From a bacterium (GTDB taxonomy: Bacteria > ARS69), in NCBI GenBank assembly GCA_041393395.1, contig JAWKKG010000003.1, positions 640,713-704,712 of the forward strand: a stretch of DNA of 64,000 nt. Reading direction: 5' to 3'. Positions 2,934 to 20,729 of the stretch are shown piece after piece. Position numbers and translations under genes: made by a program. The notes beneath the pieces are model-generated. The model searched no databases and was not told where the DNA came from. It saw only the letters and a list, made by a program, of their open reading frames with translations. Every line of letters starts with the position of its first letter. The first letter of the stretch is position 1.

Positions 2934-3975
2934 GCTTGCCGGAGTCCGTTCCGTCCTCGCCCTCCAGCAACCACAGGTACATGCCGCCGGCCGCCGGGCG
3001 GCCGAGCCAGTCCGTGCCGTCCCAGTAGACGTTGTGGATGCCGGAGGGGCGCGGCCCGTCCGTGAGCGTCCGCACGAGCGCGCCGCGGAAGTCCAGGATG
3101 CGGACGCGCGCGTTCTGCGCCCGCGGCAACGTGAACAGGATGCGCGTCTGTGACGTGAGCGGGTTCGGGATCGGCGGGAGGGCGCGCACGCGCGATTCGT
3201 CGAGCGTGCCTTCCGGCAGCGGGGCGAGGCCGCCCGCGTCGTCCGCAACGACCGCCTGCAGGACGGCGCCGTCCGAATCGCGTTGTGCGAACACGATCGC
3301 GCCGAGACGTCGCTCGTCCCACGCCGGATTCAGCGGGATCAGGTGTCGCACGAACTGGACCTGTCCGGGCACACCGGCCGTGAGCGTCTCGTCGGGCAGC
3401 ACCTGGCGGGCCACGCGCGGCCAGCTCGATTCGCCGCCCGGGCCGCAACACTCGATCACGCCGCCCTCGTAGATGACGGCCCGGATCTTCCACTGCGCGG
3501 GCACCGGGACGCTCTCGCCGTCCGGGATCTGCAGATCCACGTTCAGCGTGCCGGCGAGCGACTCGCCGTCGAAGTTGTACGACGCTTCCATGAGCAGCGG
3601 CGACCCCGAGCCGGCGATGGTCTCGGCCAGGGTGCGGTACGCGAACGAGACGTCGCCGCCGCCGGCCACGGACTCCGTGCCGCCGAAGATCGCGGTCGGA
3701 AGCGTCGGCGCTCCGTAGTACGCATGACGGGCGATCGCGTCCGCGTTCGCGAGCGGGCCCTCCGCGTGGTACTCCACCGTCACCACGGCGAGGGAGTCGT
3801 CGCTCTCGAGCGCGGTGAGTCCTGCCCGTGCGTCCACGCAATCCGGGCAGGCCACGGATCCGAACAGTTCCACGAGCGCGCCGCGCGCGACCGGCTCCGC
3901 CGCCACGGCGACCGGCACGAGCGCCACCGCAGGGGCGACGACGAGGAACGTCTGAAACGCGCGCAAACGCCACAT
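2917..3975 (-). CDS. secreted thioredoxin/DsbA-fold protein (ELFGSVACPDC CxxC) with C-terminal T9SS-type (FlgD-Ig-like) sorting domain
   Basis: Signal peptide MWRLRAFQTFLVVAPAVALVPVAVAAEP; CPDC motif in DsbA-like context; C-terminal tail RVRILDFRGALVRTL...IHNVYWDG...GMYLWLLEG typical of Por-secretion tails; start chosen at internal ATG within longer ORF. Confidence 0.6.
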   Translation of the reverse strand: MWRLRAFQTFLVVAPAVALVPVAVAAEPVARGALVELFGSVACPDCVDARAGLTALESDDSLAVVTVEYHAEGPLANADAIARHAYYGAPTLPTAIFGGTESVAGGGDVSFAYRTLAETIAGSGSPLLMEASYNFDGESLAGTLNVDLQIPDGESVPVPAQWKIRAVIYEGGVIECCGPGGESSWPRVARQVLPDETLTAGVPGQVQFVRHLIPLNPAWDERRLGAIVFAQRDSDGAVLQAVVADDAGGLAPLPEGTLDESRVRALPPIPNPLTSQTRILFTLPRAQNARVRILDFRGALVRTLTDGPRPSGIHNVYWDGTDWLGRPAAGGMYLWLLEGEDGTDSGKLTLLR

Positions 3976-4177
3976 GAGGTGATCCGTCGGGGGCAGGGAT
4001 CGGGAACCGGACCGAGGATACGACTTTTCGCGGCCACCTGTGACCGCGATCGTGAGTCGCGGTCCGTCGGCGGGTCGCGGAGCCGGTCGGGGCCGTCGAC
4101 TCCCCACGAGGAGGCTGGGAACGCCGTCGGACCTCGTGCTACGTTCGCCGCGCCCCCCCCACGTTCCGGAGGTCGTC

Positions 4178-4705
4178 ATGCGCGCTCGTGCATTCGTTTC
4201 GTTCCTGCTGGTCGTCGGTTGCGCGAGCGTGGTGTTCGCGGCTTCTTCCGGCGGTGGAGACTCCCGCGACAAGAAGTCGGCCGACGCTTCGTCCGGCGCC
4301 GACGACACCGCCGCGATCTACGACCGCGGCATGGAGCTCGTGAAGAAGGGTGACTACGAGGCTGCGCTCGAGCGCTTCCGCGCCGCGGCCAAGAAGGACA
4401 AGGGCAACGCCGAGTACGTGAACATGGTGGCGTACACGCTCCGCAAGACCGGCCGGCTGGACGAAGCGTTCGAGATGTACGCGAAGGCGTTGAAGATGAA
4501 GCCGGAGTTCCCACAGGCCCGCGAGTACCTCGGCGAGGCGCACCTGCAGGCGCTCCTCGAGCAGGTCGACCTTCTCCGGAGCTACGGTCCGTCCGGGCAG
4601 AAGGAGTACGACCAGCTCGTGGCTGCGCTGGCGGAAGCCGCCACGGCGCTCAGCTCCGACGTCGTGAGCGCCAAGACCAAGGTCCCGGACAAGAAGTCCT
4701 GGTAG
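4178..4705 (+). CDS. TPR-repeat lipoprotein/secreted protein
   Basis: GGAGG 5 nt upstream of ATG 4178; signal peptide + Cys (LLVVGCAS); TPR-like helices (YDRGMELVKKGDYEAALERFRAAAKKD). Confidence 0.65.
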   Translation: MRARAFVSFLLVVGCASVVFAASSGGGDSRDKKSADASSGADDTAAIYDRGMELVKKGDYEAALERFRAAAKKDKGNAEYVNMVAYTLRKTGRLDEAFEMYAKALKMKPEFPQAREYLGEAHLQALLEQVDLLRSYGPSGQKEYDQLVAALAEAATALSSDVVSAKTKVPDKKSW

Positions 4706-7474: not shown

Positions 7475-9994
7475 GTGGACGTCGAGCGGTTCCTGGAGCG
7501 CATCGAACGATCCCGCGACTACGGCGGGCAGATCGCGCACGTGGAAACCCTGCCCGAGCGCCCGGCGCGCTACGAGCCGCTGGCCGAGCCGTTCCCTCCC
7601 GCGATCCGGAAGGCGCTGCAGGGCCTCGAGATTTGCGATCTCTACTCGCACCAGGCGCGTTGTGTGGCGGAGGCGCGCGAGCGGCGGAACGTCGCGGTCG
7701 TCACCGGCACGGCGTCGGGCAAGACCCTCGCGTACACGCTCCCCGTGCTCGAGCGACTGCTCGCGAACCCGGAAGGCACCGCCCTCTTCCTCTATCCCAC
7801 GAAGGCGCTGGCCCAGGATCAGCTCCGCGGCCTGCTGCGCATCGCGGAACTCTCGGAGGAGATCGCGGGGCTGCTGCGCACCGGCACGTACGACGGCGAC
7901 ACGCCGTCCGTCGGTCGCCGCAAGCTGCGCGACGAAGGCAATCTGATCCTCTCGAACCCGGACATGCTGCATTCGGGCATCCTGCCGTACCACGCGAAGT
8001 GGTCGCGCTTCCTCTCGCGCCTCGAGTTCGTGGTGATCGACGAGATCCACGCGTACCGCGGGATCTTCGGCTCGAACGTCGCGAACGTGATCCGGCGGCT
8101 GCGTCGCGTGTGCCGTCACTACGGATCGGATCCGCAGTTCCTGCTCGGGTCGGCCACGATCGCGAACCCGCGCGACTTCTCCCGCTCGCTCGTCGGCGCC
8201 GACGTCTCGCTCGTGAACGACGACGGCTCGCCCCGCGGCCGCAAGAAGTTCGTGCTCTGGAACCCGCCGTTCCTGGACACCGCGAACATGGATCGTCGGA
8301 GCTCGAACGTGGAGGCGCACTGGCTCTACACCGAGCTCGTGAAGGATCGCGTCCAGACCATCTGCTTCTCGCGCGCCCGCGTCACGGCGGAGCTGATCCA
8401 CCGCTACACGCAGGAGATGCTCACGCGCAGCAAGCCGGAGCTCGCCGGTCTCGTGCGTGCGTACCGTGGCGGTTACCTGCCGCGCGAACGCCGCGAGATC
8501 GAGAAGGCGCTGTTCTCGGGCGAGCTGCTCGGCGTGAGCTCCACGAACGCGCTCGAGCTCGGCATCGACATCGGCAGTCTGGATGCCTCGATCATCACGG
8601 GCTTTCCGTCCACGATCGCATCCTTGTGGCAGCAGGCCGGCCGGGCGGGGCGGGGGAGCGAGGAGGCGGCGACGTTCTTCGTGGCCTACAACGATCCCAT
8701 CGACCAGTACCTCGTGCGCCATCCCGAGTACCTGTTCGCGCAGTCGCCCGAGAGCGCGGTGATCGATCCCGAGAATCCGTACATCCTCACCGGGCATCTG
8801 GAGTGCGCGGCGTTCGAGCTGCCGCTCGGCGCGGACGAGCCGGAGCTGTTCGGCGAGATCGCGAAGGACCTGATCCGGCTGCTGCGCGAGCATGGTCGGG
8901 TGCGCGAGGTGGACGGCCGCTCGTACTGGGCGAACACGGACTTCCCGTCGCGCCAGGTGAGCCTCCGTCACATGTCGGACGACACGTACACGATCATCGA
9001 AGTGCCGGCGGACACGGGGAAGGGAGACGCCTACCGTCCCCGCACCGGACCGGACTTCGCGCCGCCGGATCCGCAGGAGGCGAAGGTCATCGGCAACGTG
9101 GACGCGACGTCCGCGCTGGAGCTGCTCTATCCCGAGGCCGTGTACCTTCACGACGGCGAGACGTTCGTGGTACGGCACCTGGACCTGGAGGGGAAGGCCG
9201 CGTACGTCGAGCGGCGCGAGGTGGACTACTACACGAACCCCGTGCTGGAGCAGCACCTCGTGCTGCGCGAGGAGCGCGAGCGGGACACATTCGGCGGAGC
9301 CGACACCGGCTTCGGCGACGCGACCGTCACCTGGTTCACGGCGTTCTTCAAGAAGATCCAGTTCTTCTCCACGGACTCGATCGGCTACGGCAACCTCGAT
9401 CTGCCGCCGCAGAACATCGATACGACCACGGCCTGGATCACGATCCCGGCCGATCTCCGGGGCGCGCTCAAGCGTCTCGGCAAGAACCCGGTGGAGGGTC
9501 TCGCCGGTGTACGCAATCTGCTGATCAGCGTCGTGCCGCTGTACGCGATGTGCGATCGCGCGGACATCGGCGGCGTGGTGGACAGCAAGAACCTCGGCCA
9601 GCCCACGATCTTTCTCTACGATCGCTATCCGGGCGGCCTCGGCTTCGTGGAGCACTTCTACCGCAAGCCGCGCACGATCCTCGAGTCGGCGCGGGAGCTG
9701 GTGGAGGAATGCCCGTGCGATGGCGGTTGTCCGTCGTGCGTAGGGCTGCCCGTGCTGCGGCCGGCGCAGCACCAGGACCCGGACGTCGGCGGCGCGTGGC
9801 CGATCCCGGACAAGGACGCGGCGCGGATCATCCTCGAGGAGCTCGTCACACGCGCGGCGGAGATCGAGCGGCAGGCGGGCGGCGAGGGAACGGCGCGGAG
9901 AGTCGCGCCATCGCCCGTGCCGCGAGAACGCACGACCCCGTCGATCGCCTCCGGCCCTTCGTCCGGCGTCGCCGGCGACGATCTTCCGTTCTAG
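7475..9994 (+). CDS. mrfA: DEAD/DEAH-box helicase with C-terminal DUF1998 four-Cys domain (MrfA/YprA-like)
   Basis: GGAGG 5 nt before GTG 7475; Walker A GTASGKT, DEIH box, helicase C domain, C-terminal CPCDGGCPSC; upstream part of 1069-aa ORF is non-coding read-through. Confidence 0.8.
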   Translation: MDVERFLERIERSRDYGGQIAHVETLPERPARYEPLAEPFPPAIRKALQGLEICDLYSHQARCVAEARERRNVAVVTGTASGKTLAYTLPVLERLLANPEGTALFLYPTKALAQDQLRGLLRIAELSEEIAGLLRTGTYDGDTPSVGRRKLRDEGNLILSNPDMLHSGILPYHAKWSRFLSRLEFVVIDEIHAYRGIFGSNVANVIRRLRRVCRHYGSDPQFLLGSATIANPRDFSRSLVGADVSLVNDDGSPRGRKKFVLWNPPFLDTANMDRRSSNVEAHWLYTELVKDRVQTICFSRARVTAELIHRYTQEMLTRSKPELAGLVRAYRGGYLPRERREIEKALFSGELLGVSSTNALELGIDIGSLDASIITGFPSTIASLWQQAGRAGRGSEEAATFFVAYNDPIDQYLVRHPEYLFAQSPESAVIDPENPYILTGHLECAAFELPLGADEPELFGEIAKDLIRLLREHGRVREVDGRSYWANTDFPSRQVSLRHMSDDTYTIIEVPADTGKGDAYRPRTGPDFAPPDPQEAKVIGNVDATSALELLYPEAVYLHDGETFVVRHLDLEGKAAYVERREVDYYTNPVLEQHLVLREERERDTFGGADTGFGDATVTWFTAFFKKIQFFSTDSIGYGNLDLPPQNIDTTTAWITIPADLRGALKRLGKNPVEGLAGVRNLLISVVPLYAMCDRADIGGVVDSKNLGQPTIFLYDRYPGGLGFVEHFYRKPRTILESARELVEECPCDGGCPSCVGLPVLRPAQHQDPDVGGAWPIPDKDAARIILEELVTRAAEIERQAGGEGTARRVAPSPVPRERTTPSIASGPSSGVAGDDLPF

Positions 9995-10003
9995 GAGCGC
10001 GCC

Positions 10004-10870
10004 GTGACTCCGAGCGACGTCCAGGCGACCGGTATCCGACAGCACATCGCCGCGCTCCTGCGGGGCGAGCGTCGGCCGTCGCCCGCGGCGCCCGTGCGGC
10101 TCGCGGACTCGACCCTGGCGACGTTGCGGGGCGCGCGCACCACGCAGATCGACGGCGTCTCGGTGTTCGAGATCCGGCGCGACTTCGAGGAGCTGCTCCC
10201 CGGCGAGGACGCGTGGCGCGCGCTGCGCGACGGGATGGGCCACCTCGCGACGAAGGAAGAGGAGGAGATCTACGCCGGGCTCCGGCCCGCGATCGGCGCC
10301 GATCCTGCGCGCGTGGCGATTCTCGATCTCGAGACCACGGGGTTCTGGGGCTGCCCGATCTTCCTGGTGGGCCTGCTGCGCGTCGAGAACGGTCGCCTCG
10401 TCACGCGGCAGCTGCTCGCGCGCGACTACCCGGAGGAGGCGGCCGTGCTGCGCGCCGCCGCCGCGCTCCTGGACGAGAGCGCGCTCGTGATCACGTTCAA
10501 CGGGAAGTCCTACGACGTGCCGTGCTTCGCCGAGCGCTGCTCGATGTTCGGCGTGAAGACGAAGCTCCGTCGCCGCCCGCACGTGGACATCCTGCACGTC
10601 GCGCGGCGTCGCTGGCGCGGAGAGTTCGAGGACTGCCGACTGCAGACTCTCGAGCGACACGTCACGCGACTCACGCGCCAGGGCGACATCCCATCGGCCG
10701 AGATCCCCGCCGTGTACCACGACTTCGCGGCCACGGGCGACGTTTCGCGGCTGGAGCCGATCCTGCATCACGGTCGCGTGGACGTGATCACCACGCTGCG
10801 CCTGTTCACGGCGCTCGCGGCCGATCCGCCGGCGCCGCTGCGACCGCGGAAGCGGAAGGTGGTTTCCTAG
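10004..10870 (+). CDS. mrfB: RNase-H-like/DnaQ-fold exonuclease (MrfB/YprB-like)
   Basis: Exo I motif ILDLETTG; immediately downstream of DUF1998 helicase, conserved two-gene arrangement. Confidence 0.7.
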   Translation: MTPSDVQATGIRQHIAALLRGERRPSPAAPVRLADSTLATLRGARTTQIDGVSVFEIRRDFEELLPGEDAWRALRDGMGHLATKEEEEIYAGLRPAIGADPARVAILDLETTGFWGCPIFLVGLLRVENGRLVTRQLLARDYPEEAAVLRAAAALLDESALVITFNGKSYDVPCFAERCSMFGVKTKLRRRPHVDILHVARRRWRGEFEDCRLQTLERHVTRLTRQGDIPSAEIPAVYHDFAATGDVSRLEPILHHGRVDVITTLRLFTALAADPPAPLRPRKRKVVS

Positions 10871-13149
10871 GGCTGCAGGACCACCACCCGGCGGGTCGTC
10901 TCCGACGTTCCGGCCACGACACGCGCGAAGTACACCCCCGGCGCGACCCGCCGGCCGCTCGCGTCGAGCGCGTCCCAGGTCGCGCAGCCCGAACCGTCGG
11001 CGCGCGTGACGATCGGCAGCGCCGTGACTCGCCGCCCCGCCACGTCGTAGATCGCGAGCTCGGGCCGCAAGCCGGCCGGCGTCCGCACGTCGAACGCCAC
11101 GCTGCTTCGCGCGGGATTCGGCCGGGCGACGAGCTCGAGGCCGGAGTCGAGCGGGGCCGCGACGACGGGCGAGTCCGTCGCGGAACTCGGGTCCATCGCC
11201 CATACGCCGGCGTGCTCCGTGCCTACGAGGATCTGGCCGCTCGTCGGGTCGCGGACGATCGACGTGCACTTCGTGGTCGCGAGACCGGCCGTCACGAAGC
11301 CGGTGCCTTCGATCCAGGGGCCCTGCGACGCCGTCGCGAGGAAGAACCGATCCGTCGCGGGGTCCCAGTCGCCGCCGCGAAGCGTCACGCCGGGGAGGAC
11401 TCCGCGATCCGTCCAGGTGACGCCGGCGTCGTCCGAGCGCCACACGCCCTGGCTCCGGTACACGGCCGCGAGGCGGCCGGGATCGGACGGATCGAGGACG
11501 AGGTTCAGCGCCAGGCCGGTGGGAAGACCCGTATCCCGCGCGGTCCACGTGGCGCCGCCGTCCGTCGTCAATCGAACCGAACCGTCGTACGCGCCGATCG
11601 CGAACGCGCGCGAGTCATCCGTGGGATCGACGACCATCGCGGCGGCGGACCAGGAATGAAAGTACTGGATCGGAAAGGTGACACCGCCGTCGTCGGAGCG
11701 GTGCAGGACTCCGGTGTCGATCCAGAGCCAGACCGGGCTCGATGCGGTCGCGCCCGCCGCCATGCACACCGGGGTCTCGAAGAGACCGAACGGGTCGATG
11801 GACAGGGCGCTCCACGTCTGGCCGTCGTCGGTACTGCGCTTGATCGAAGGGCTGCCGGTGTCGAACGACGAGCTCCAGCCCGCCTGGAACACGACGCCTT
11901 GAATCGCGGGATGGGGGAAAGGAAATGTCACGCCGGAGCTGCCGAGCGCGAGCGGACCCGCGGTCCACGGCGCGCCGGGTGACGGTGCGCGCCAGAGTCG
12001 CGAGCCGCCCGCCGCCCAGATCGCGCCTCCGGTGGCCGGGGCGAGCGCGTGGATCGCCGTCCCGGAGAGGCCGTCGACCGTGTCACTCCACGTCGCGCCG
12101 CCGTCCGTGGATCGACGCAACCCGCGCGTGAACCTCTCGGTCGAGGTCACGAGGTAGACGCGATCCGGATCGGCGACGTCGAACCGAAGCGCGGTCAGTC
12201 GCTCCTCGTCGAAGTAGGGAGCCGAGAACGAAGTCCCGAGGCTTTCCCAGCTCGCGCCGCCGTTCGTCGTCGTGACGACCTGACTCGCTCGTCCCCAGCA
12301 GTCCGCCGTGCAGTAGTAGTCGAAGCGCGTGGCGTACGCGCGATCCGGATCCACGGGGTCCGCGACGATCCCGACCGGTCCGCAGTCGATTCCGCAGGAC
12401 GGGTAGGTGATCGCCGTGAACGTGAGTCCGGAGTCGGTGCTGCGCTGATAGCCCGTTTGTCCGCCGGCCGCCCAGACTCGGGTCGGATCCGTGTCGCAGT
12501 AGGATACGAACCGGAGGAATGTGCCGACCGAAGCGCTCGGGGTCCACGTCGCGCCCGCGTCCGTCGTTCGCACGATCGACGTTTCGTTCGCGAGCAGCGC
12601 TTCGCCCGGATTCGTCGGGTGCCACGCGATGTGGTGCGGGTCGACGTTGCCCGGGCCGATGCCGGCGGCCGTCCAGCTCAGACCGTCGTCGGTACTGCGG
12701 AAGAGCCCGCCCGAACCTCCGACGGAGACGAGCACGACGCCCGGCACCAGCGGCGCGAACGAGATGTCGCGGCATTCGGACCAGCTAGCTCCGACCGGAA
12801 CGCTGTTCCAGGTGACTCCACCGTCCGTCGAGCGGCGTAGAGCGGTCGGGACACTCGAGTCATGCAGCAGCAGGAGATCGGAATCGAACGGCGAGATCGT
12901 GATCGCGTCCAGCGGTGCCGTTTCGCGCGGCAGATCCACGTCCACACGGGACCACGAGTCCCCGCGATCGTCGGAACGAAAGACGCCCTGGCGACTCGGA
13001 AGCGCGACGAGGCGTGTGGGCGTAGAAGCGGACTGGGCGAAACCTTGAATCGAGCCACCGTCCGGTCCGATCGACTCGAACGCCGAAGCGAAGGCGGGGG
13101 AGATCCAAGTGCCGAGAAGGACGAGCGAGAGTATCCGGGCGCGGGGCAT
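10867..13149 (-). CDS. secreted BNR/Asp-box repeat protein (sortilin/xyloglucanase-like beta-propeller) with C-terminal T9SS-type sorting domain
   Basis: At least 9 S/T-x-D-x-G-x-T-W motifs (STDGGVTW, TTDAGATW, STDDGQTW...); signal peptide MPRARILSLVLLGTWISPAFASA after GGAGG; C-terminal ELAIYDVAGRRV...GVYFARV tail. Confidence 0.75.
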   Translation of the reverse strand: MPRARILSLVLLGTWISPAFASAFESIGPDGGSIQGFAQSASTPTRLVALPSRQGVFRSDDRGDSWSRVDVDLPRETAPLDAITISPFDSDLLLLHDSSVPTALRRSTDGGVTWNSVPVGASWSECRDISFAPLVPGVVLVSVGGSGGLFRSTDDGLSWTAAGIGPGNVDPHHIAWHPTNPGEALLANETSIVRTTDAGATWTPSASVGTFLRFVSYCDTDPTRVWAAGGQTGYQRSTDSGLTFTAITYPSCGIDCGPVGIVADPVDPDRAYATRFDYYCTADCWGRASQVVTTTNGGASWESLGTSFSAPYFDEERLTALRFDVADPDRVYLVTSTERFTRGLRRSTDGGATWSDTVDGLSGTAIHALAPATGGAIWAAGGSRLWRAPSPGAPWTAGPLALGSSGVTFPFPHPAIQGVVFQAGWSSSFDTGSPSIKRSTDDGQTWSALSIDPFGLFETPVCMAAGATASSPVWLWIDTGVLHRSDDGGVTFPIQYFHSWSAAAMVVDPTDDSRAFAIGAYDGSVRLTTDGGATWTARDTGLPTGLALNLVLDPSDPGRLAAVYRSQGVWRSDDAGVTWTDRGVLPGVTLRGGDWDPATDRFFLATASQGPWIEGTGFVTAGLATTKCTSIVRDPTSGQILVGTEHAGVWAMDPSSATDSPVVAAPLDSGLELVARPNPARSSVAFDVRTPAGLRPELAIYDVAGRRVTALPIVTRADGSGCATWDALDASGRRVAPGVYFARVVAGTSETTRRVVVLQP

Positions 13150-13282
13150 GACGGCCTCCGAGATCGTTCGGTTCGAGGCCTCCGGGGTCGTGGGTATCTT
13201 AGCAGGCCAGCGCGTCCGAATGAACCGGGTTGGACCGGGTCGGTGCCCGGACGACGGCGGTGTTCGCTTTCGAACGATCGGA

Positions 13283-14047
13283 TCAGCGCACCCGCACCGC
13301 CCGCAACGATCCGATCCTCGAGTCCGGGCGTAGCGCCACGAAGTAGACGCCGGCCGCCACCGGCTGACCGTGGTCGTTGCGCCCGTCCCAGGGCACGTCG
13401 TGCACGCCGGCGTCGAGCGGCTCACCGGACAGCAGGGAGCGAACCCGCTCGCCCGTGGCGCCGTGGACGGTGAGATCGAACCGGGCGGGCGTCGCCACGT
13501 CGAACCGGACCGTCGTCGTCTCTCGGAACGGATTCGGGAACACGACGCGAAGAGTGGAGATCGCCGGCAACGAGTCGCCGGACGCGGGTCTCAACTCGAA
13601 CGTCAGCTCGCGCGAGATCGCGTCTCGCAGGAGCGGATGCAGCTCGAAGACGAGCTCGCGCGAGACGGCGTCGACGGAGAGCGCCCGAAGGTCGATCACG
13701 ACTTCACGTGAGGTGGCCTCCCGGCCGCTCGGAGCGAGGTCGATCACGACCTCCCGCGAGATCGCGTCCAGCGGCAGCGGGCCGAAATCCACGACGACCT
13801 CCCGCGCGACCGCATCCGCGACGCGCGGGAGAAGCGCGATCACGAGCTCTCGCGAGACCGCGTCGGGAACGGTCTGCTTCAGGTACACGGCGACCTCGCG
13901 CGACACGGCATCCCGGCGCGTCGCATCGAGAAGGAGGATCACGGAGCGCGACACGGCGTCCGTGGCGACACCGCGCGGCGGGGCGGCGACGGCCGCCCCG
14001 GCCCACAGGATCATCGCGATCCACCCGCCCGCGAGCCGACGTTTCAT
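13283..14047 (-). CDS. secreted tandem-repeat protein (DAVSRE-V/L-V-I/V repeats x8) with C-terminal T9SS-type sorting domain
   Basis: Signal peptide; eight ~15-aa repeats; C-terminal VFPNPFRETTTVRFDV...HDVPWDGRNDHGQPVAAGVYFVAL tail; start overlaps upstream gene stop (TAATG). Confidence 0.7.
   Translation of the reverse strand: MKRRLAGGWIAMILWAGAAVAAPPRGVATDAVSRSVILLLDATRRDAVSREVAVYLKQTVPDAVSRELVIALLPRVADAVAREVVVDFGPLPLDAISREVVIDLAPSGREATSREVVIDLRALSVDAVSRELVFELHPLLRDAISRELTFELRPASGDSLPAISTLRVVFPNPFRETTTVRFDVATPARFDLTVHGATGERVRSLLSGEPLDAGVHDVPWDGRNDHGQPVAAGVYFVALRPDSRIGSLRAVRVR
13583..13963 (-). repeat. in-frame ~45-bp tandem DNA repeats encoding the DAVSRE repeat array
   Basis: Recurring gacgcggtctcgcgcgag-like units visible in sequence. 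Confidence 0.6.
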
Positions 14048-15318
14048 TACGGGAGAACCGCGCGCGCCTGAATGGCGGAGAGTCCGTTCTCCACATCAGT
14101 GAGTGCGATCTCCCAGGTGGTCACGTTGCCGCCGCTCGAGACGAAGGCCGCCGGCAGCGGGCCGATGTGATCCCCGCCCGTGCGCGTGACGAACACGTTC
14201 ACGGTCGCGTCCGAAGGCACGTTCGTTCCCTCGAGCCGCACGGTGATCGCGCCGTTCGCTCCGTCGAGCGCCTCGTCCTGCCAGGGGAAGGCGAACGTCG
14301 CTCGCGGATCGTCCGGCACGGCCAGACCGTTGAGGCTGACGATGCGCAGCGAAGGATCCGTCGCCTCCGGCCAGATCTGCGCGGTCGCGCCGCTCGCGAG
14401 GAGCACGAGACTCGGCGCCGGGAAGATCGAACCCGTGCCCCCGAGGACGCCCGTGGACTCGACGCGAATCCGCCCCTCGCCCGCCGTCTGGAAGCCGCCG
14501 GTCGCCACCAGCGTTCCGTTCACGGTGACGCCGTCGGCGATGAGACGGATCGCGCCGCCGCTGCCGGATCCGGCGCCGTTGTCGCCGCGCGCTCCGCCGC
14601 GCGCGTTGATCGTTCCCGTGACCTGGATGTCTCCGGCGCACGCCACGAGGATCGCGCCGCCTCCTGCGCCCGCGCTCGACGAGTTCCCGGCGCCGCCCGA
14701 CCCTCCGATGAGCGGCACGATCCGCGATCCGCCGTAGGTCGGAGCGCCACCGCCGCCCGCGGTGGCGTAGCTGCCGTCCTGGGAGAGCCCCGCGGCGCCA
14801 CCCCCGGGGCCGAATCCCGCACCGCGCGGAACGCCGAGGAACGTCCCGTTGCCGCCGCGGAATCCTCCGGGACCCGGCAGCGACGAGAACCCGGACGAGG
14901 TTCCTGCTTCGCCCGCGATGTTCACGGTCCCGGTGATCGTGACGTTGCCGGTCACGAGCCAGACGACCGGGGCGCCCGACGGATGATTCGCGAAGTCGAG
15001 AGTCGCTCCGGCGCCGATCGTCACGTCGGTGTAGTGGTAGACGATCGCCCACTGCGTCGCGTCGAAGACGCCGTCCCCGGGCTGCCACGCGGCATCCGTG
15101 GGCTGGACGTTCCAGTCTCCGGTGATGGCCTGCGCGAGATCGATCGTCGTGCTGGCGCTGATCGTGAGGCTGCCGTCCCAGTCCTGACCGGGGACGTCGA
15201 TCTGGGCGAGGGCGAGCGGCGCCGCCAGGATCACCGACCCCGCGGTCGCGCAGACGAGGGCTTGGCGGCGGACGGCCGAGATCGTCCGATCTCGAACGGG
15301 GTTCGCGAGTGGCGACAT
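14047..15318 (-). CDS. secreted glycine-rich beta-helix-like protein
   Basis: GGAGG then ATG; signal peptide; long G/A/S-rich segment with periodic hydrophobics (GGAGNSSSAGAGGGAILVACAGDIQVTGTINARGG...). Confidence 0.65.
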   Translation of the reverse strand: MSPLANPVRDRTISAVRRQALVCATAGSVILAAPLALAQIDVPGQDWDGSLTISASTTIDLAQAITGDWNVQPTDAAWQPGDGVFDATQWAIVYHYTDVTIGAGATLDFANHPSGAPVVWLVTGNVTITGTVNIAGEAGTSSGFSSLPGPGGFRGGNGTFLGVPRGAGFGPGGGAAGLSQDGSYATAGGGGAPTYGGSRIVPLIGGSGGAGNSSSAGAGGGAILVACAGDIQVTGTINARGGARGDNGAGSGSGGAIRLIADGVTVNGTLVATGGFQTAGEGRIRVESTGVLGGTGSIFPAPSLVLLASGATAQIWPEATDPSLRIVSLNGLAVPDDPRATFAFPWQDEALDGANGAITVRLEGTNVPSDATVNVFVTRTGGDHIGPLPAAFVSSGGNVTTWEIALTDVENGLSAIQARAVLP

Positions 15319-15601
15319 GGGAGGACTCCGGAGGTTCCTGGGTGGAATGGGCGGTGCGCGCGCGATCGCTTCGCGGGACGGCCGTCCGGGGCAGGGTTCG
15401 GCCGTCAAGGCGTCAACGGGGCCGAGAAACGGACATTCGGGGAGAGATCTCCCCTCCCGGACTCCGGAGATCCCGGTATGTTTCCGAGCGTGGAGGGCTC
15501 CCGTGAGGTCGCCGGCGGGGACGCTGGCCCTTTGCGGTCAACTACAGCCGTTCTCTAGCCGATCCTAGCAGGGAGTGAACTGCGGATCGGAGGGACCCTC
15601 G

Positions 15602-16606
15602 ATGAGCACGTCCGGACTCACTGTCTGCCTCATCATCAAGAACGAGCGCTCGAACCTGCAGGAGGTCCTGCCGGATCTCGTGCTGGCGGCCGACGACGTC
15701 GTCGTGGTCGATACGGGCTCGAGCGACGGTTCGGTCGAGCTGGCCCGCGCGCTCGGCGCTCGGGTGTTCACCCATCCCTGGAACGAGCACTTCGCGGACG
15801 CGCGGAATCGCGGCCTGGAAGAGGTCGCCACCTCGCACGCGATGTGGCTCGACGCCGACGATCGCATCGATCGATCCGACCTGGAGCGGGTTCGTGCCGC
15901 CTGTCTGGAGCACGGCCCCGAAGCCGGCTTCACGCTGATCCTGGACTCGGACGGCGCGAAACCGGAGTTCCGGAGTACGTGTCGCCAGCTTCGCGTGTTC
16001 CCCGCGCGACCGGAGCATCGCTTCACCGGTCGGGTGCACGAACAGATCCAGCCGTCGCTCGAGCGCACGGGGACGCGGGTCGTGCCGCTGGACGTCACGG
16101 TGCGTCATCTCGGCTACTCCACCGACGACATCGTGCGCGCGAAGTCGCGACGAAACCTCGAGCTGTGCCGACGCGAATGGATCGAGGGGGCGAAGACGCT
16201 CGCGACCGCGTATCACTACGTGCAGGCGGCGTCGCTCGCGGGCGAGTACGCGGAAGGCGCGAACCTCGTGCGCGAGGTGCTGGCGGCGACGAAGCCCGAT
16301 TCCGCGGAGGACATCGTCCAGAACCTGCGCGTGACCCTCGGACATCTCGAGGAGAAGCAGGGCCGGATCCCGCGCGCGGAGTCCGTCTACCGCCACGCGG
16401 TGTCGCTGCACGCACGCGATCCCTGGGCGGCCTGGCATCTCGGGGATCTCCTCGCCCGCACGGGTCGGGGAGAGGAAGCGATCGCGTGGCTGGAGGTCGC
16501 GGCATCGGCCGACCCGCTGAGCTCGCGCGTGCCCCTGCCGCTCGCGGGCGTTCGCGCGGCGGCGGAGAATCGCTTGCGGGAGCTGCGAGCCGGCACCCCC
16601 GCCTAG
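15602..16606 (+). CDS. family-2 glycosyltransferase with C-terminal TPR region
   Basis: GGAGGG before ATG; GT2 N-terminus (VCLIIKNERSNL...VVVDTGSSDGS...DADD); TPR-like C-terminal helices. Confidence 0.7.
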   Translation: MSTSGLTVCLIIKNERSNLQEVLPDLVLAADDVVVVDTGSSDGSVELARALGARVFTHPWNEHFADARNRGLEEVATSHAMWLDADDRIDRSDLERVRAACLEHGPEAGFTLILDSDGAKPEFRSTCRQLRVFPARPEHRFTGRVHEQIQPSLERTGTRVVPLDVTVRHLGYSTDDIVRAKSRRNLELCRREWIEGAKTLATAYHYVQAASLAGEYAEGANLVREVLAATKPDSAEDIVQNLRVTLGHLEEKQGRIPRAESVYRHAVSLHARDPWAAWHLGDLLARTGRGEEAIAWLEVAASADPLSSRVPLPLAGVRAAAENRLRELRAGTPA

Positions 16607-17720: not shown

Positions 17721-18977
17721 CTAAGGCAGGAACTGCTTCGGATTCGCGAGCTTGCGCGGCAGGTACTCGTCGATCACGTAGTTCAGGCCGTGCTTCGCGA
17801 GCGCCTGCTGCTCGACACGAACCCCCATCTTGATCAGCTTCTCGAGCGCCTTTCGCCACGGCGCGTAGTGCTGGATGAACGGATCGTTCTTGATCGCGTC
17901 CTTCGCGCGCTTGACGTCGACTTCCTTCAGGGGGTGCGTCGGCAGGTCGTACTCGGTGATGTCGTCCGGCGTGACACCCAGGAACTTCGCCTGCGGCACG
18001 CAGAAGTACTCGTTCAGGTGGGCGGCGTTGCCGCTGCCGACCTTGAGCGTGCGGTAGATGTTCGAGTACCCGTACGGGTCGCCGTCCACGAACACGTACA
18101 CCGGCAGCTTGCACTCGTCCGAGAGGCGGCGGATGAAACGTCGGCACGCGCGGGTGGGCACCCCGCCGAGCGAGACAAGGATGCACTGGGCGCTCCGCCA
18201 GTACGTGTGCTTCACGAGGCGCTGGAACATACCGGCGGTCTCGATCGCGAGCACGAACTTCGCGTCCGTCTGGAACTGCAGATCCTCCACCGAGATCGGG
18301 ATCGAGTAGGCGCCGCTGCCGAAGCGCGTGCAGTCGATCTCCAGCTCTTCGCCCGTCTCGCGGTCGTGGTCCATCACCACGAGCTGGCCGGCCACGTCGC
18401 CGCCCTTCTCCTCGGGGATGAATCCGAGCTGCTCGCGGTTCACGCCGAACAGCGCCTCCACGTCCTCCATGACGGCGTCGCTCTCGGGCTGCTCGTTGAA
18501 CCGGCAGTCGTCCCAGTTCTTGCTGACGTAGTACGCTTCTCGCTTCGTGGCGATGTCGTCCGTCTGCACGAGCTCCTTGCTGAAGGACATCATGCGCAAC
18601 GTCTGGGCGAACGTCTTCACGGTGCCGACCGTGAGCGTGCGCTCCTTCTTCTTGCCCTTGATGCGGAAGAAGCCGTCCGACTCCCGGTACACGACGTTGT
18701 TCAGCGAGCGCAGCGGGAAGCGCAGGCTCGGCGTGGCCGACTTCAGGATCTTGTCGCGAACCTGCGTGGCCTCCCCTTCGATGCGACTCACGACCTCCCG
18801 GCCGCCCGCGAGACCGCCGGACTTGCCCTTCGCCTTCGCGGCCCTCCGGGCGCCGGACTTCCCGCTCGCGCCGGCGGCGGACTTGGCGGCGCCCTTGGTC
18901 TTCGCCTTCGCGGACGCCTTCGTCTTGGTCTTCGCCTTCGCGTCGCCCTTCTTCGCGTTCGTCTTGCGGCTGGCCAT
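17721..18977 (-). CDS. top6A: DNA topoisomerase VI subunit A (Spo11/Top6A family) with N-terminal Lys/Ala-rich histone-H1-like tail
   Basis: Toprim DxD (FVDGDPYG), conserved E (LAIETAG), 5Y-CAP region; N-terminal ~60 aa KAKTKTKASAKAKTK low-complexity. Confidence 0.8.
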   Translation of the reverse strand: MASRKTNAKKGDAKAKTKTKASAKAKTKGAAKSAAGASGKSGARRAAKAKGKSGGLAGGREVVSRIEGEATQVRDKILKSATPSLRFPLRSLNNVVYRESDGFFRIKGKKKERTLTVGTVKTFAQTLRMMSFSKELVQTDDIATKREAYYVSKNWDDCRFNEQPESDAVMEDVEALFGVNREQLGFIPEEKGGDVAGQLVVMDHDRETGEELEIDCTRFGSGAYSIPISVEDLQFQTDAKFVLAIETAGMFQRLVKHTYWRSAQCILVSLGGVPTRACRRFIRRLSDECKLPVYVFVDGDPYGYSNIYRTLKVGSGNAAHLNEYFCVPQAKFLGVTPDDITEYDLPTHPLKEVDVKRAKDAIKNDPFIQHYAPWRKALEKLIKMGVRVEQQALAKHGLNYVIDEYLPRKLANPKQFLP

Positions 18978-18986
18978 GGGCTCTCC

Positions 18987-20729
18987 TTACATCTTCCGGC
19001 TGCGTTCGAGGGTGTCGGTCAGCGTCTCGACGATCCGCTTCTCCTCGGCCGTTTCCAGGTCGAGGATCTCGCGCAGGGCGATGCCGATGTGCGGGATGTA
19101 CTTCTCGATGTAGGCGCGCTTGCGGGCGGCGTCGCGCTCGCGCTGCCCGCGACGGATGTAGCGTCCGAGCTTGCGACCGGCGTCCTGCAGCGCGAGCTTC
19201 AGCTCCTTCAGGATCTCGTCGTAGCTCGCGACCGCTTCCTTGCTCTCGCTCGTGAACGGCACCCACACGCTCGCGACGTGGACGAGCAGCACCATCGGCG
19301 CCGCCGGCAGCGCGCCCCGACTCTGCTGCAGTCCGTACGAACGCCAGTTCGTCTGGAGGACCGCCTTCGTGATCGCGCAGGCACCCTGCTGGTACTGCAG
19401 CGGCACGCGATTCGCGAACCGGTGCAGCGAGCACAGCTCCTCGGCCGGGAGCTTCCCCCCGTACGCGAGGCCGACCTCGACCTGGAACGGGTTGCCGCGG
19501 TAGACGGAAGGCGTGCGCGTGACCGCCGTGACGAAGTCCGCGTTCATCTGCTCGGTGAGACTCGCCTCCAGACGCTCGGCGCCGATGGGGGAGAGGCAGT
19601 TCGTGGGCGGCGCGGGGATCTTGGTTCGCCGGATCGACGCGAGGAGCCGCTCCGCGGTCTCCGTGGTGAGTCGCTTCGGCGACGTCTCCGGCGAAAGCCC
19701 CGCTCCCTCCACGAGCGTCTCGGCCATCTTCGGTCCGACCCGGCTGAACTCGTGCTGGAAGAACGCCTTGAGCTGGCGCGACTTGGAGTCCAGCGCCATG
19801 CGCAGGAGCATGCCGAGCTCCACGCCGTAAGGATGTGGCTGGATCTCGAGCGCCTCCTCCGGGAGCGTGTCCGTCGCGCGCTCGAGAATCATCTCGGCGC
19901 CTTTCGGGTCCACGTAGCGGAGCCGGACGTGCGGATTCGCGAGCACGGTCTGACGAAGATACTCCTCGGTCCCGTGGCGTCCTCCCTTGTACACGCCTTC
20001 GAGCTCGATCTCCACGCGCGTGCCGTGTTCCTTGGGCCCCCAGTCCTTCTCCGTGTCCTTCTTGACCACGGGCTCGTTCTTGAGCGTGTCGATCACGAGC
20101 TCGAACCGGTGGGCCGGGCTCCGGCCGTCGATGCGGCTTTCGATCACGACCGGCTTGCCGGTCGTGAGCTGCCCGTACATGCCGGCCGCACTGATGCCGA
20201 TGCCCTGCTGGCCGCGGCTCTGTCGCAACCGGTGGAACTTCGAGCCGTACAGGAGCTTGCCGAAGATGCGCGGCACCTGCGCCTTCACGATGCCGGGACC
20301 GTTGTCCTCCACGACCACGCGGTAGCGGTTCTCCGAGACCGGACGGATCTCCACGAGCAGCTCGGGAAGGATCCCGGCCTCCTCGCAGGCGTCCAGCGAG
20401 TTGTCCACCGCCTCCTTGATCGTCGTGAGCAACGCCTTGGTCGGACTGTCGAATCCGAGCAGATGCCGGTTCTTCGTGAAGAACTCGGAGACCGAGATCT
20501 CGCGCTGCTGCGCCGCCATCGTGGTGGCGGTGGCCCGCGGGGCGTCGTCGCCCCTCTTGCGCGCGCCGCCCGCCCGCGGTTTCCGCGTCGCGGCCTTGTC
20601 GCCGGCCGGCTTCTCCGCGCGGGCGGAGCCCTTGGTCTTCGCCGCGCGTCCGCCGCCCCCTCCTCCGCCCTTCGCGGCGGCCTTCTGGGGGGACGAGATG
20701 CCGAGCTCGAGTTGGGTTGCGGGATTCAA
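18987..20729 (-). CDS. top6B: DNA topoisomerase VI subunit B (GHKL ATPase + transducer) with N-terminal Lys/Ala/Gly-rich tail
   Basis: Bergerat-fold motifs ([29 protein letters not shown]); TTG start preceded by GAGGAGG. Confidence 0.8.

What the first reader, a model, noticed from the sequence alone, without database searches (positions are those of the whole stretch)
10867..15318. Operon of three secreted proteins, two with T9SS-type sorting tails and one a DAVSRE tandem-repeat protein
Three consecutive minus-strand genes are translationally linked (TAATG overlap at 14047): a glycine-rich beta-helix-like protein, a small protein built of eight ~15-aa DAVSRE(V/L)V(I/V)xL repeats ending in a T9SS/FlgD-Ig-like C-terminal domain, and a large BNR/Asp-box beta-propeller protein also ending in a T9SS tail. 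The repeat protein has no obvious homologue class. Its repeats are encoded by near-identical ~45-bp DNA units, which makes it prone to slipped-strand length variation. Together this looks like a co-secreted surface assembly (adhesin or S-layer-like, or glycan-binding complex).
Basis: partly seen in the sequence, partly recalled or inferred. Interest (0 to 1): 0.6.

Follow-up and report, generated by a model that had tools for sequence, protein, structure and literature searches.

The report
Glycine-rich protein plus repeat-tether gene pair
The three genes are real, but the meaningful unit is the first two: an undescribed glycine-rich secreted protein and a small partner made of eight short "DAVSRE" strands plus a surface-sorting tail, a gene pair found across at least eight bacterial phyla in which one residue in each protein changes together, suggesting that the two proteins touch.

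Summary
The three minus-strand genes exist. G1 (15318-14050) is a glycine-rich beta-helix protein. G2 (14047-13286) has eight exact 16-aa DAVSRE repeats and a FlgD-Ig/T9SS-like tail. G3 (13149-10870) is a BNR/sortilin propeller with a T9SS tail. Two claims fail. The repeat DNA units are 48 bp and only about 66% identical, so slippage is unlikely, and the one orthologue also has eight copies. Only G1 and G2 are coupled (TAATG overlap); G3 lies 133 nt away and is replaced in the closest relative.

The real finding is wider. G1 belongs to an unannotated family of more than 1,200 proteins, with no Pfam, NCBIfam or PDB match. Its members almost always sit beside a gene that opens with 3-11 "[DE]-A-[VI]-S-R-E" repeats. 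The rest of that partner varies: a T9SS tail, a dockerin, or a giant multidomain stalk. The link holds in both directions. The near-invariant G1 Arg154 co-varies with the repeat Glu: five independent Arg losses each come with Glu-less repeats (p about 1e-5, not corrected for phylogeny).

My best reading is that each repeat docks one G1, so G2 is a multivalent surface tether. This is inferred, not demonstrated.

The parts
14050..15318 (-). G1: secreted glycine-rich protein, 423 aa. It has a signal peptide (about aa 1-38, with an inferred ALA|Q cleavage site), N-terminal beta rungs (51-133), a highly conserved Gly-rich coil region (134-221), three beta-helix rungs (222-306) and a C-terminal 7-stranded Ig-like sandwich (323-421).
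   Evidence: ORF and start. No Pfam or NCBIfam hit at E<=1. More than 1,200 homologues at about 40% identity, none with a precomputed Pfam domain among the 120 best listed. AF2 model with pLDDT 92 and pTM 0.88. No PDB sequence or fold match except a weak CBM21-like match to the C-terminal sandwich.
14851..14874 (-). G1 loop G-P-G-G-F-R-G-G (aa 149-156), which contains Arg154. This residue co-varies with the Glu of the partner's S-R-E motif and is the proposed contact site.
   Evidence: Translation. P150, G151 and G155 are invariant and R154 is at least 90% conserved. Co-variation.
14045..14049 (-). TAATG stop/start overlap that couples G1 and G2.
   Evidence: Sequence. The same overlap is present in L001 (position 3740), and L086 has a 4-nt overlap.
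13286..14047 (-). G2: the repeat-tether protein, 254 aa. It consists of a signal peptide, eight DAVSRE repeats and a C-terminal sorting domain, with nothing else.
   Evidence: The only full-length orthologue is P0002 (73% identity, 8 repeats).
13586..13969 (-). Array of eight 16-aa (48-bp) units, x-x-x-D-A-V-S-R-E-V-V-I-D-L-x-P (aa 27-154).
   Evidence: AF2 gives pLDDT<50 across this region, with only short strands at the E-V-V-I-D part. The motif is shared with partner proteins in at least 49 other G1 loci.
13286..13558 (-). G2 C-terminal Ig-like sorting domain (FlgD_ig / T9SS-CTD-like).
   Evidence: PF13860 at 35.5 bits (cutoff 27). TIGR04183 at 15.4 bits (below the cutoff of 23). pLDDT above 90. 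Foldseek matches to FlgD, PorU and PorZ. Homologous to the G3 tail.
13150..13285 (-). G2 stop codon (13283-13285) followed by the 133-nt G2-G3 spacer, which carries a GGAGG ribosome-binding site before the G3 ATG. No terminator or promoter consensus was detected.
10870..13149 (-). G3: BNR/Asp-box, sortilin-Vps10-type beta-propeller protein (760 aa) with a signal peptide and a T9SS type A tail. It is a neighbour and not part of the conserved pair.
   Evidence: Absent from this position in L001. Not a recurrent neighbour.
10870..11148 (-). G3 C-terminal T9SS sorting domain.
   Evidence: TIGR04183 at 24.7 bits (cutoff 23) and FlgD_ig at 27.1 bits (cutoff 27).

Best explanation
G1 and G2 are the local copy of a widespread, undescribed two-gene cassette. 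One gene encodes a secreted glycine-rich beta-helix/Ig protein (G1). The other encodes a partner whose N-terminus carries tandem short strand motifs with the consensus [DE]-A-[VI]-S-R-E-[VF]-[ST]-V-[FV].

Proposed mechanism: each repeat is a linear docking site that binds one G1 molecule. The contact includes a salt bridge between the repeat's Glu and G1 Arg154 in the conserved GPGGFRGG loop. G2 contains nothing except a signal peptide, eight such sites and a T9SS-type C-terminal domain. It would therefore act as a multivalent tether that collects up to eight G1 copies and fixes them to the cell surface through its sorting tail. G1 itself has no such tail.

Shown: the gene pairing across phyla in both directions, and the Arg/Glu co-variation.

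Inferred: that the contact is stable binding rather than catalysis, the 1:1 site occupancy, the surface location, and what G1 does once displayed. G1's Ig-like end weakly resembles CBM21, so glycan or surface binding is a guess.

G3 is an ordinary neighbouring T9SS cargo gene.
For: 1. G1 family. More than 1,200 homologues of about 400-430 aa; none of the 120 best listed has a precomputed Pfam domain. 79 genome loci span Planctomycetota, Verrucomicrobiota, Lentisphaerota, Armatimonadota, Eisenbacteria, Acidobacteriota, Hydrogenedentes, Sumerlaeota and Desulfobacterota, and Pontiella (Kiritimatiellota) comes.

2. Forward association. With a repeat HMM requiring >=3 hits of >=3 bits, 51 ORFs qualified, and 49 of them are same-strand neighbours of G1 (38 downstream, 11 upstream). 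Only 2 of about 4,600 other ORFs qualified, and both lie in the same loci. About 14 further loci show diverged versions of the motif by eye.

3. Reverse association. The two unambiguous prokaryotic repeat arrays found with the repeat region alone and then looked up (P0140, P0145) have G1 directly upstream. Of 16 metagenome loci picked only by a DNA pattern for two DAVSRE motifs, 11 of the 12 evaluable ones have G1 immediately upstream.

4. Co-variation. G1 Arg154 is basic in 51 of 56 paired loci. All 5 loci with a non-basic residue (A, G, A, H, P) have repeats that keep S-R but lack Glu (SRA, SRL, SRK/T/Q, SRT, SRP/Q/F). One of these five (L092) was a prospective test. The Fisher table 48/3/0/5 gives p=1.5e-5. 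The five G1s are not each other's nearest relatives.

5. Partner architecture. The minimal partners are a signal peptide, repeats and an anchoring module only. The anchor is a T9SS/FlgD_ig tail here and in L001, L002 and L006, and Dockerin_1 above threshold in L039 and L051. Giant partners repeat [2-3 motifs + fn3-like module] many times.

6. The repeat array has no confident autonomous fold (pLDDT<50), as expected of a motif that orders on binding.

7. Seven tandem G1 paralogues precede a single 4-repeat partner in L045. This fits several cargo variants sharing one scaffold.

8. The most conserved part of G1 is the Gly-rich region that holds Arg154.
Against: Co-variation shows a specific functional contact but cannot separate binding from enzyme-substrate recognition. 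The co-variation rests on 5 events, has 3 exceptions (L067 with R and SRA; L026 and L054 mixed), and the p-value is not corrected for phylogeny. The low pLDDT of the repeats could simply reflect a 2-sequence alignment. How G1, which has no T9SS tail, would reach the surface is unknown. Piggy-back export through the T9SS is not established (my own knowledge). About 20 G1 loci show no recognisable repeat partner; some of these are truncated contigs or distant G1 homologues. One lineage that lacks Arg154 (L090/L091/L093) has a partner with no SRE repeats in its first 300 aa. The presence of T9SS machinery in this genome was not checked.
Confidence: 0.45

Rival explanations
1. Enzyme-substrate pair. 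G1 is a secreted processing or modifying enzyme, for example a protease cutting at S-R|E or an enzyme modifying the Ser or Arg. The repeats are its recognition sites, so G2 would be diced or decorated at eight positions.
For: The Arg154/Glu co-variation is equally expected for a specificity pocket. G1 has invariant or near-invariant polar residues (D86, N111, H112, S207, S253) and two G-x-S-x-G-like strings (GGSGG, GSGSGG). The tight operon coupling resembles the layout of multi-core peptide precursors and their enzymes (my own knowledge).
Against: G1 has no hit to any catalytic family in Pfam, NCBIfam or PDB. Most of its invariant residues are Gly, Pro or Trp, which points to a structural role. 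The partners carry anchoring modules (T9SS tail, dockerin) and giant structural stalks, which make little sense for a substrate meant to be cut up. Seven tandem G1 paralogues for one 4-repeat partner is odd for an enzyme.
Confidence: 0.2
2. Co-assembly into a fibre or matrix. The repeat strands and the G1 beta-helices polymerise together, by strand addition to open beta-helix ends or by donor-strand-like complementation. This would form a surface filament or S-layer-like coat rather than a simple tether.
For: Each repeat is essentially one conserved beta-strand with flexible Pro/Gly-rich linkers. The spacing of 16-20 aa is of the order of one G1 width (inference). G1 has a conserved strand G-R-I-R-I-E at the last beta-helix rung and a conserved extreme C-terminus. 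Giant partners carry dozens of motifs along a stalk.
Against: The G1 model is a closed, confident monomer with a complete 7-stranded Ig domain. Nothing shows an open groove. There is no similarity to curli, Fap, TasA or pilins in any search.
Confidence: 0.15
3. Dedicated periplasmic chaperone. G1 binds the aggregation-prone strand repeats of its partner only transiently, keeping it export-competent, and is not itself displayed.
For: The repeats are hydrophobic strand segments with no stable fold of their own. G1 lacks any sorting tail whereas its partners have one. The gene order, with G1 first and translational coupling, would suit a chaperone made in excess.
Against: Minimal partners consist of nothing but the repeats plus an anchor, so there would be no cargo left to chaperone. 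Multiple divergent G1 paralogues and the strong conservation of a 420-aa two-domain protein are more than a strand-capping role would seem to need.
Confidence: 0.1
4. This is a three-gene operon in which G1, G2 and the BNR propeller G3 form one co-secreted complex, and G2 length varies by slipped-strand mispairing.
For: The genes share a strand and are close together. G2 and G3 carry homologous tails. No terminator was found between them.
Against: G3 is not linked to the pair in the nearest relative or in any other locus. A 133-nt gap and a separate ribosome-binding site precede G3. The DNA repeats are about 66% identical with at most 14-nt shared words, and TRF finds nothing. Both orthologues have 8 copies.
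Confidence: 0.05

Closest known systems
Cohesin-dockerin scaffoldins (cellulosome-type surface assemblies)
   Same: Both have a scaffold protein with tandem docking sites that recruits several copies of a partner and is itself fixed to the cell by a separate anchoring module. In other loci the repeat partner carries a true type I dockerin (PF00404 above cutoff in L039 and L051).
   Different: The docking sites here are linear motifs of 10-12 aa rather than cohesin domains of about 150 aa. G1 has no cohesin or dockerin signature (no Pfam hit at E<=1). No enzyme domains are involved. Binding itself is inferred only.
T9SS type A cargo proteins (C-terminal domain TIGR04183 / PF18962; FlgD_ig-like tails of FCB-group bacteria)
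   Same: G3 passes TIGR04183. G2 has a homologous FlgD_ig-type tail whose model resembles the PorU and PorZ C-terminal domains. A third protein with this tail lies in the window.
   Different: G2 has no passenger domain other than the repeats. G1 has no tail. The G1/repeat cassette is found mostly in phyla without a T9SS as far as I know (Planctomycetota, Verrucomicrobiota), so it does not depend on T9SS.
Donor-strand systems (chaperone-usher pili, Bacteroidota type V pili, TasA fibres)
   Same: In both, a short conserved beta-strand segment of one protein is proposed to complete or extend a beta-structure of another.
   Different: There is no sequence or fold similarity. The G1 Ig domain is predicted to be complete. 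The strands occur as 3-11 tandem copies in one polypeptide instead of one per subunit. This comparison comes from my own knowledge and was not tested.
Repeat beta-solenoid surface proteins (curli CsgA, ice-nucleation proteins with 16-aa repeats)
   Same: Both have short tandem strand-forming repeats in a secreted protein, and the period here is 16 aa.
   Different: The period varies from 16 to 20 aa among homologues, with Pro-rich linkers. AF2 predicts no solenoid. The motif is unrelated and always comes with a separate partner gene.
Glycine-rich beta-helix / polyglycine-II domains of phage tail fibres and giant-virus 'collagen-like' proteins
   Same: The composition is similar, and G1 has weak Foldseek matches to BFVD models (best E 2e-6, TM about 0.3).
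   Different: TM scores are low, there is no sequence homology, and the context is cellular, across many bacterial phyla.

Membership tests
T9SS type A C-terminal sorting domain (TIGR04183 / PF18962) | The C-terminal ~70-80 aa score above the curated cutoff of the CTD profile: G3. | tested here: met
   TIGR04183 at 24.7 bits against a cutoff of 23. PF18962 reaches only 17 against 27. FlgD_ig at 27.1 against 27.
T9SS type A C-terminal sorting domain (TIGR04183 / PF18962) | The C-terminal ~70-80 aa score above the curated cutoff of the CTD profile: G2. | tested here: inconclusive
   TIGR04183 at 15.4 bits (cutoff 23), and no PF18962 hit. However, PF13860 FlgD_ig scores 35.5 (cutoff 27), the tail is 41% identical to the G3 tail (E 6e-10), and Foldseek matches the PorU (6za2) and PorZ (5m11) domains at E about 1e-3.
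T9SS type A C-terminal sorting domain (TIGR04183 / PF18962) | CTD present on G1. | tested here: not met
   No Pfam or NCBIfam hit at E<=1. The family occurs mainly in PVC phyla.
T9SS cargo | The genome encodes the T9SS machinery (SprA/PorV/PorU/PorZ and others). | not testable with these tools
   Only a 64-kb window is held. The source contig is 973 kb, but only flanks can be fetched.
BNR/Asp-box, sortilin-Vps10-type beta-propeller | Profile matches above the gathering score: G3. | tested here: met
   PF15902 at 92.4 (cutoff 33), PF02012 at 48.8 (cutoff 27), PF13088 at 33.2 (cutoff 31.4). The NCBIfam F510_1955 glycosylhydrolase equivalog scores 124, below its cutoff of 175, so no enzyme name is assigned.
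Contingency locus / slipped-strand variable repeat gene | Tandem DNA units identical or nearly identical over the unit length, with copy number varying among relatives. | tested here: not met
   Core identity averages 66%, the longest shared word is 14 nt, and TRF finds nothing. The orthologue at 73% identity also has 8 copies. No further close relatives were found in JGI metagenomes.
Cohesin-dockerin system | A cohesin domain in one partner and a dockerin in the other. | tested here: not met
   No cohesin or dockerin in G1, G2 or G3. Dockerin_1 is present only in the repeat partners of other loci (L039 30.9 bits, L051 33.9 bits), where it serves as the anchor rather than the G1-binding element.
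Known right-handed beta-helix families (Pfam Beta_helix, NosD, Pectate_lyase, autotransporter passenger, Chlam_PMP) | Sequence profile match. | tested here: not met
   Zero Pfam families at E<=1 for G1. A PDB profile search found nothing. Foldseek against PDB gave no match at E<0.001. The beta-helix rungs are seen only in the AF2 model.
G1/SRE-repeat cassette (defined here) | A G1-family gene adjacent on the same strand to a gene with >=3 tandem [DE]-A-[VI]-S-R-E-type motifs that follow a signal peptide. | tested here: met
   Window: G1 scores 464 bits against the family HMM, and G2 has 8 motifs and overlaps the G1 stop.
G1/SRE-repeat cassette (defined here) | A basic residue at G1 position 154 paired with Glu in the repeats. 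| tested here: met
   The window has Arg154 and Glu in 7 of its 8 repeats; the first repeat has Ser.

The most novel reading that the evidence does not exclude
The G1/SRE cassette is a previously unrecognised, phylum-spanning protein-peptide docking system. A glycine-rich fold would be specialised to clamp a 10-12-residue strand motif. Bacteria from the PVC group to Eisenbacteria and Armatimonadota would use it to load many copies of one protein onto interchangeable surface anchors (T9SS tail, dockerin, giant stalk). That would make it a new modular principle for building cell-surface structures, and potentially a new orthogonal tag/binder pair.
Probability: 0.35. Interest if true: 0.8.

Novelty: new variant of a known kind. 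Interest (0 to 1): 0.68.

Why it matters
If the model is right, two sizeable groups of 'hypothetical' proteins gain a testable role: a family of more than 1,200 glycine-rich proteins and its repeat-bearing partners. These partners include many of the giant proteins (over 2,000 aa) of Verrucomicrobiota and Planctomycetota. It would add a new multivalent way of attaching proteins to bacterial surfaces that is independent of any single secretion or anchoring route. It would also point to one specific residue pair, G1 Arg154 and the repeat Glu, that can be tested directly by mutation. A short linear motif with a dedicated 45-kDa binder could also be useful as an affinity pair. If the model is wrong, the co-evolving pair still marks an unknown enzyme-substrate or assembly system that is widespread in environmental bacteria.

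Tried and rejected
- **Slipped-strand repeat variation:** rejected.
- **G3 as part of the unit:** rejected.
- **Autonomous fold of the repeat array:** AF2 gave pLDDT<50. This is uninformative beyond showing no confident solenoid.
- **PDB sequence profile search for G1:** nothing.
- **Literature searches** on the motif strings and on glycine-rich/dockerin contexts: nothing relevant.
- **Protein search with a three-repeat profile**: only 17 short fragments, all 'hypothetical'.
- **Close G2 relatives in JGI metagenomes:** none.
- **General mutual-information scan between G1 columns and motif positions:** dominated by phylogeny. Only the Arg154/Glu pair can be interpreted, because Arg154 is otherwise invariant.
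- **A strict full-length repeat HMM** under-counted the arrays and even missed the window. It was replaced by local scoring.
- **Promoter and terminator consensus scans:** empty, as expected for a 70% GC non-model genome.
- **Natural G1-repeat fusions** among longer homologues: none. The extra length comes from mis-called starts.
- **P0141 and P0147** from the repeat-only search are spurious low-complexity hits (VDAIERET repeats; no G1 nearby).
Full report
**1. What is in the window**

Three minus-strand ORFs fill 10867-15408. Start-codon context gives the following genes.
- **G1** runs from 15318 to 14050 (423 aa). GGAG lies 12 nt upstream of its start.
- **G2** runs from 14047 to 13286 (254 aa). 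It has no Shine-Dalgarno sequence, and its ATG overlaps the G1 TAA as TAATG.
- **G3** runs from 13149 to 10870 (760 aa). GGAGG lies upstream of its start, 133 nt after the G2 stop.

No promoter or terminator consensus was found anywhere in the region. This is uninformative in such GC-rich DNA.

**2. Checking the observation**

G2 contains eight matches to [DE]A[VIT][SA]R[ES] at exactly 16-aa spacing. Shuffled sequences give a mean of 0.002 matches. The repeat protein is therefore real. Three points in the finding need correcting.
- The units are 48 bp, not 45 bp.
- At the DNA level their cores are only 66% identical on average. No shared word exceeds 14 nt, and Tandem Repeats Finder reports nothing.
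- The single full-length orthologue (P0002, 73% identity) has the same eight copies.

Slipped-strand length variation is therefore not supported.

Profile searches gave these results.
- **G1:** no Pfam or NCBIfam family, even at E<=1.
- **G2:** FlgD_ig scores 35.5 bits (cutoff 27). TIGR04183 scores 15.4, below its cutoff of 23.
- **G3:** Sortilin-Vps10, BNR and BNR_2 all score above their cutoffs. TIGR04183 scores 24.7 (cutoff 23).

The G2 and G3 tails are homologous (41% identity, E 6e-10). The confident part of the G2 model (pLDDT>90) resembles the FlgD, PorU and PorZ Ig-like domains. A third ORF with this tail lies at 2917-4308. The tail therefore looks like a general sorting signal in this genome.

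**3. The unit is two genes, not three**

The closest relative (L001, a MAG labelled Gemmatimonadetes) keeps the flanking genes: GT2-TPR on one side and RNase_H_2 with the MZB helicase on the other. It also keeps G1+G2 with the stop/start overlap. In place of G3 it has an FGE-sulfatase-domain gene on the opposite strand. Clustering all ORFs from 86 G1 loci recovered three recurrent groups: G1 itself, the repeat partners, and a set of membrane Ser/Thr kinases. No BNR cluster appeared.

**4. G1 is a large, unannotated family**

G1 has more than 1,200 homologues at about 40% identity and a similar length. None of the 120 best listed has a precomputed Pfam domain, and the sources call them 'hypothetical' or, spuriously, 'plastocyanin'. 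A genome scan returned 79 loci from Planctomycetota, Verrucomicrobiota, Lentisphaerota, Armatimonadota, Ca. Eisenbacteria, Acidobacteriota, Hydrogenedentes, Sumerlaeota and Desulfobacterota. Pontiella (Kiritimatiellota) also carries it.

With a 110-sequence alignment, AlphaFold2 gives a confident model (pLDDT 92, pTM 0.88). The model has these parts.
- a signal helix
- N-terminal beta rungs
- a well-ordered Gly-rich region without regular strands (aa 134-221)
- three beta-helix rungs
- a C-terminal seven-stranded Ig-like sandwich

The most conserved positions lie in the Gly-rich segment: EPGPGGFRGG, GFGPGGG, YGN and PLIGGSGGxG. Three structure-based searches gave little.
- A profile search of PDB sequences found nothing.
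- Foldseek against PDB matched only the terminal sandwich, weakly, to CBM21.
- BFVD gave low-TM matches to Gly-rich viral proteins.

**5. The repeat is the hallmark of G1's neighbour**

In L002, L006 and Pontiella, the gene after G1 opens with a signal peptide and then DAxSRE-type repeats. Reading the downstream gene in all 79 loci shows the same pattern in most of them. There are 3-11 repeats with a period of 16-20 aa and the consensus [DE]-[AV]-[VI]-S-R-E-[VF]-[ST]-[VIL]-[FV]-[VN]-G.

Quantitatively, 51 ORFs carry at least three repeat-HMM hits. Of these, 49 are same-strand neighbours of G1 (38 downstream, 11 upstream). The other two lie a few kb away in the same loci. None of the remaining ~4,600 background ORFs qualifies. 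About 14 further loci carry diverged versions visible by eye.

The reverse test also holds.
- A full HMMER scan with the G2 repeat region alone found arrays in P0140 and P0145, both with G1 directly upstream.
- A DNA pattern for two DAVSRE motifs picked 16 metagenome loci without reference to G1. G1 is immediately upstream in 11 of the 12 that hold enough upstream sequence.

What follows the repeats varies widely.
- Nothing but a T9SS/FlgD_ig tail (this window, L001).
- A propeller-like domain plus that tail (L002, L006).
- A type I dockerin (L039 and L051 above the Pfam cutoff).
- Giant proteins of more than 2,300 aa in which [2-3 motifs + fn3-like module] is iterated (L004, L008, L011, L030, L040).

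**6. Evidence for a direct contact**

G1 Arg154, in the GPGGFRGG loop, is basic in 51 of 56 loci that have a readable partner. In each of the four loci from the first set with a non-basic residue there (L013 A, L058 G, L062 A, L081 H), the partner keeps S-R but has lost the Glu: SRA, SRL, SRK/T/Q and SRT.

I then used the G1 alignment to pick further non-Arg members and fetched their contigs as a prospective test.
- **L092** (Pro at position 154) has eight repeats reading SRF/SRP/SRQ, with no Glu.
- **A second lineage** (L090, L091, L093; Ala or Pro) has a partner with no SRE repeats at all in its first 300 aa.

The table 48/3/0/5 gives a Fisher p of 1.5e-5. The five non-basic G1s each have Arg-type G1s as their nearest relatives, so the changes are independent. 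The exceptions are L067 (Arg with SRA) and the mixed arrays in L026 and L054. A general mutual-information scan was dominated by phylogeny and added nothing.

**7. Mechanism**

The data show that G1 and the repeats are functionally and physically matched. They do not show what the contact does. I favour docking, meaning that each repeat binds one G1 molecule. G2 would then be a pure multivalent tether with a sorting tail. Four observations support this.
- The minimal partners contain only repeats plus an anchoring module.
- The anchors are interchangeable (T9SS tail, dockerin, giant stalk).
- One locus has seven tandem G1 paralogues feeding a single four-repeat partner.
- G1's invariant residues are mostly structural.

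The low AF2 confidence of the array fits a motif that orders on binding, although the shallow alignment could also explain it. There are three rivals: an enzyme-substrate relationship (G1 cleaving or modifying at S-R-E), co-polymerisation into a fibre, and a transient chaperone role. None is excluded.

**8. Comparison with known systems**

The logic resembles cohesin-dockerin scaffoldins, but none of the parts belongs to those families. The tails of G2 and G3 are T9SS-type: G3 meets the curated cutoff, and G2 is supported only by homology and fold. G3 is an ordinary BNR/sortilin propeller cargo. G1 and the repeat motif match no curated family, no solved structure and no paper that I could find.

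**9. Verdict**

The slippage claim and the three-gene complex are rejected. What emerges instead is a conserved, co-evolving gene pair of unknown function spanning at least eight phyla. I rate it a new variant of a known kind of system (a surface scaffold with its docked partner) built from undescribed components. Interest is about 0.68.

Noticed in passing
window 2917-4308 (-): A third protein in the window ends in the same FlgD_ig/T9SS-like C-terminal domain as G2 and G3 (67 bits against a CTD HMM built from the G2 alignment). Its likely start is the MWRLRAF... signal peptide. This suggests the tail is a general sorting signal in this genome.
   Followed up: partly
window 17724-20729 (-): Topoisomerase VI subunits A and B sit in what is otherwise a bacterial context (TOP6A Toprim 204 bits, Topo-VIb transducer 206 bits). 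This enzyme is uncommon in bacteria.
   Followed up: partly
window 7523-10867 (+): A DEAD/Helicase_C/MZB (MrfA-type) helicase is followed by an RNase_H_2-superfamily protein. The same pair flanks the cassette in L001.
   Followed up: partly
window 15575-16603 (+): A GT2 glycosyltransferase fused to TPR repeats is transcribed divergently from G1. The arrangement is conserved in L001 but was not seen at other G1 loci. Whether it glycosylates the pair is unknown.
   Followed up: partly
L002, L007, L013, L016, L020, L022-L024, L032, L037, L043, L046, L051, L055, L061, L064, L070, L077, L092: Membrane Ser/Thr protein kinases (N-terminal kinase, TM segment, C-terminal TPR, WD40 or FGE-sulfatase-like domain) lie next to or near the G1/repeat cassette in about 20 of 86 loci, often immediately upstream or divergent. 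No genome-wide baseline was computed, so enrichment is unproven. There is none in this window.
   Followed up: partly
L045 2188-13353: A Ca. Eisenbacteria contig carries seven tandem G1 paralogues, followed by one partner with four DAISRE/SNGREF repeats and LamG/fn3-like domains. L038, L066, L068 and L075 each have two G1 copies.
   Followed up: partly
L090, L091, L093 (downstream gene, first 300 aa): G1 homologues with Ala or Pro instead of Arg154 are followed by a ~1,930-aa Big/fn3 protein. Its N-terminus (ADNTRIEALDGGVVDLSGL...) has no SRE repeats, so this may be a different partner type.
   Followed up: partly
L069 1868-5677: Downstream of a distant G1 homologue (Bryobacterales), the partner starts with a different tandem strand motif (GVTVSFENxxxYAVGA, three copies). 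This may be an alternative docking repeat.
   Followed up: no
window 15205-15318 (-), G1 N-terminus: The G1 signal peptide contains A-V-R-R-Q-A-L-V, which is reminiscent of a twin-arginine (Tat) motif. The family consensus shows an ordinary AxA Sec-type signal, so this may be chance.
   Followed up: no
L004, L008, L011, L019, L027, L030, L040 (giant partners): In Verrucomicrobiota and Kiritimatiellota, the partner is a protein of more than 2,300 aa (3,899 aa in Pontiella, L004). It is built of iterated modules, each consisting of 2-3 VSRE motifs followed by a ~110-aa fn3-like domain (…LDWSxYN…FAVVAVDxLGN…).
   Followed up: partly
window 9-2933 (+): A large ORF with several N-terminal hydrophobic segments and an HEAAHQWWGN zinc-peptidase-like motif looks like a membrane-bound M1-type aminopeptidase. 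It was not analysed.
   Followed up: no
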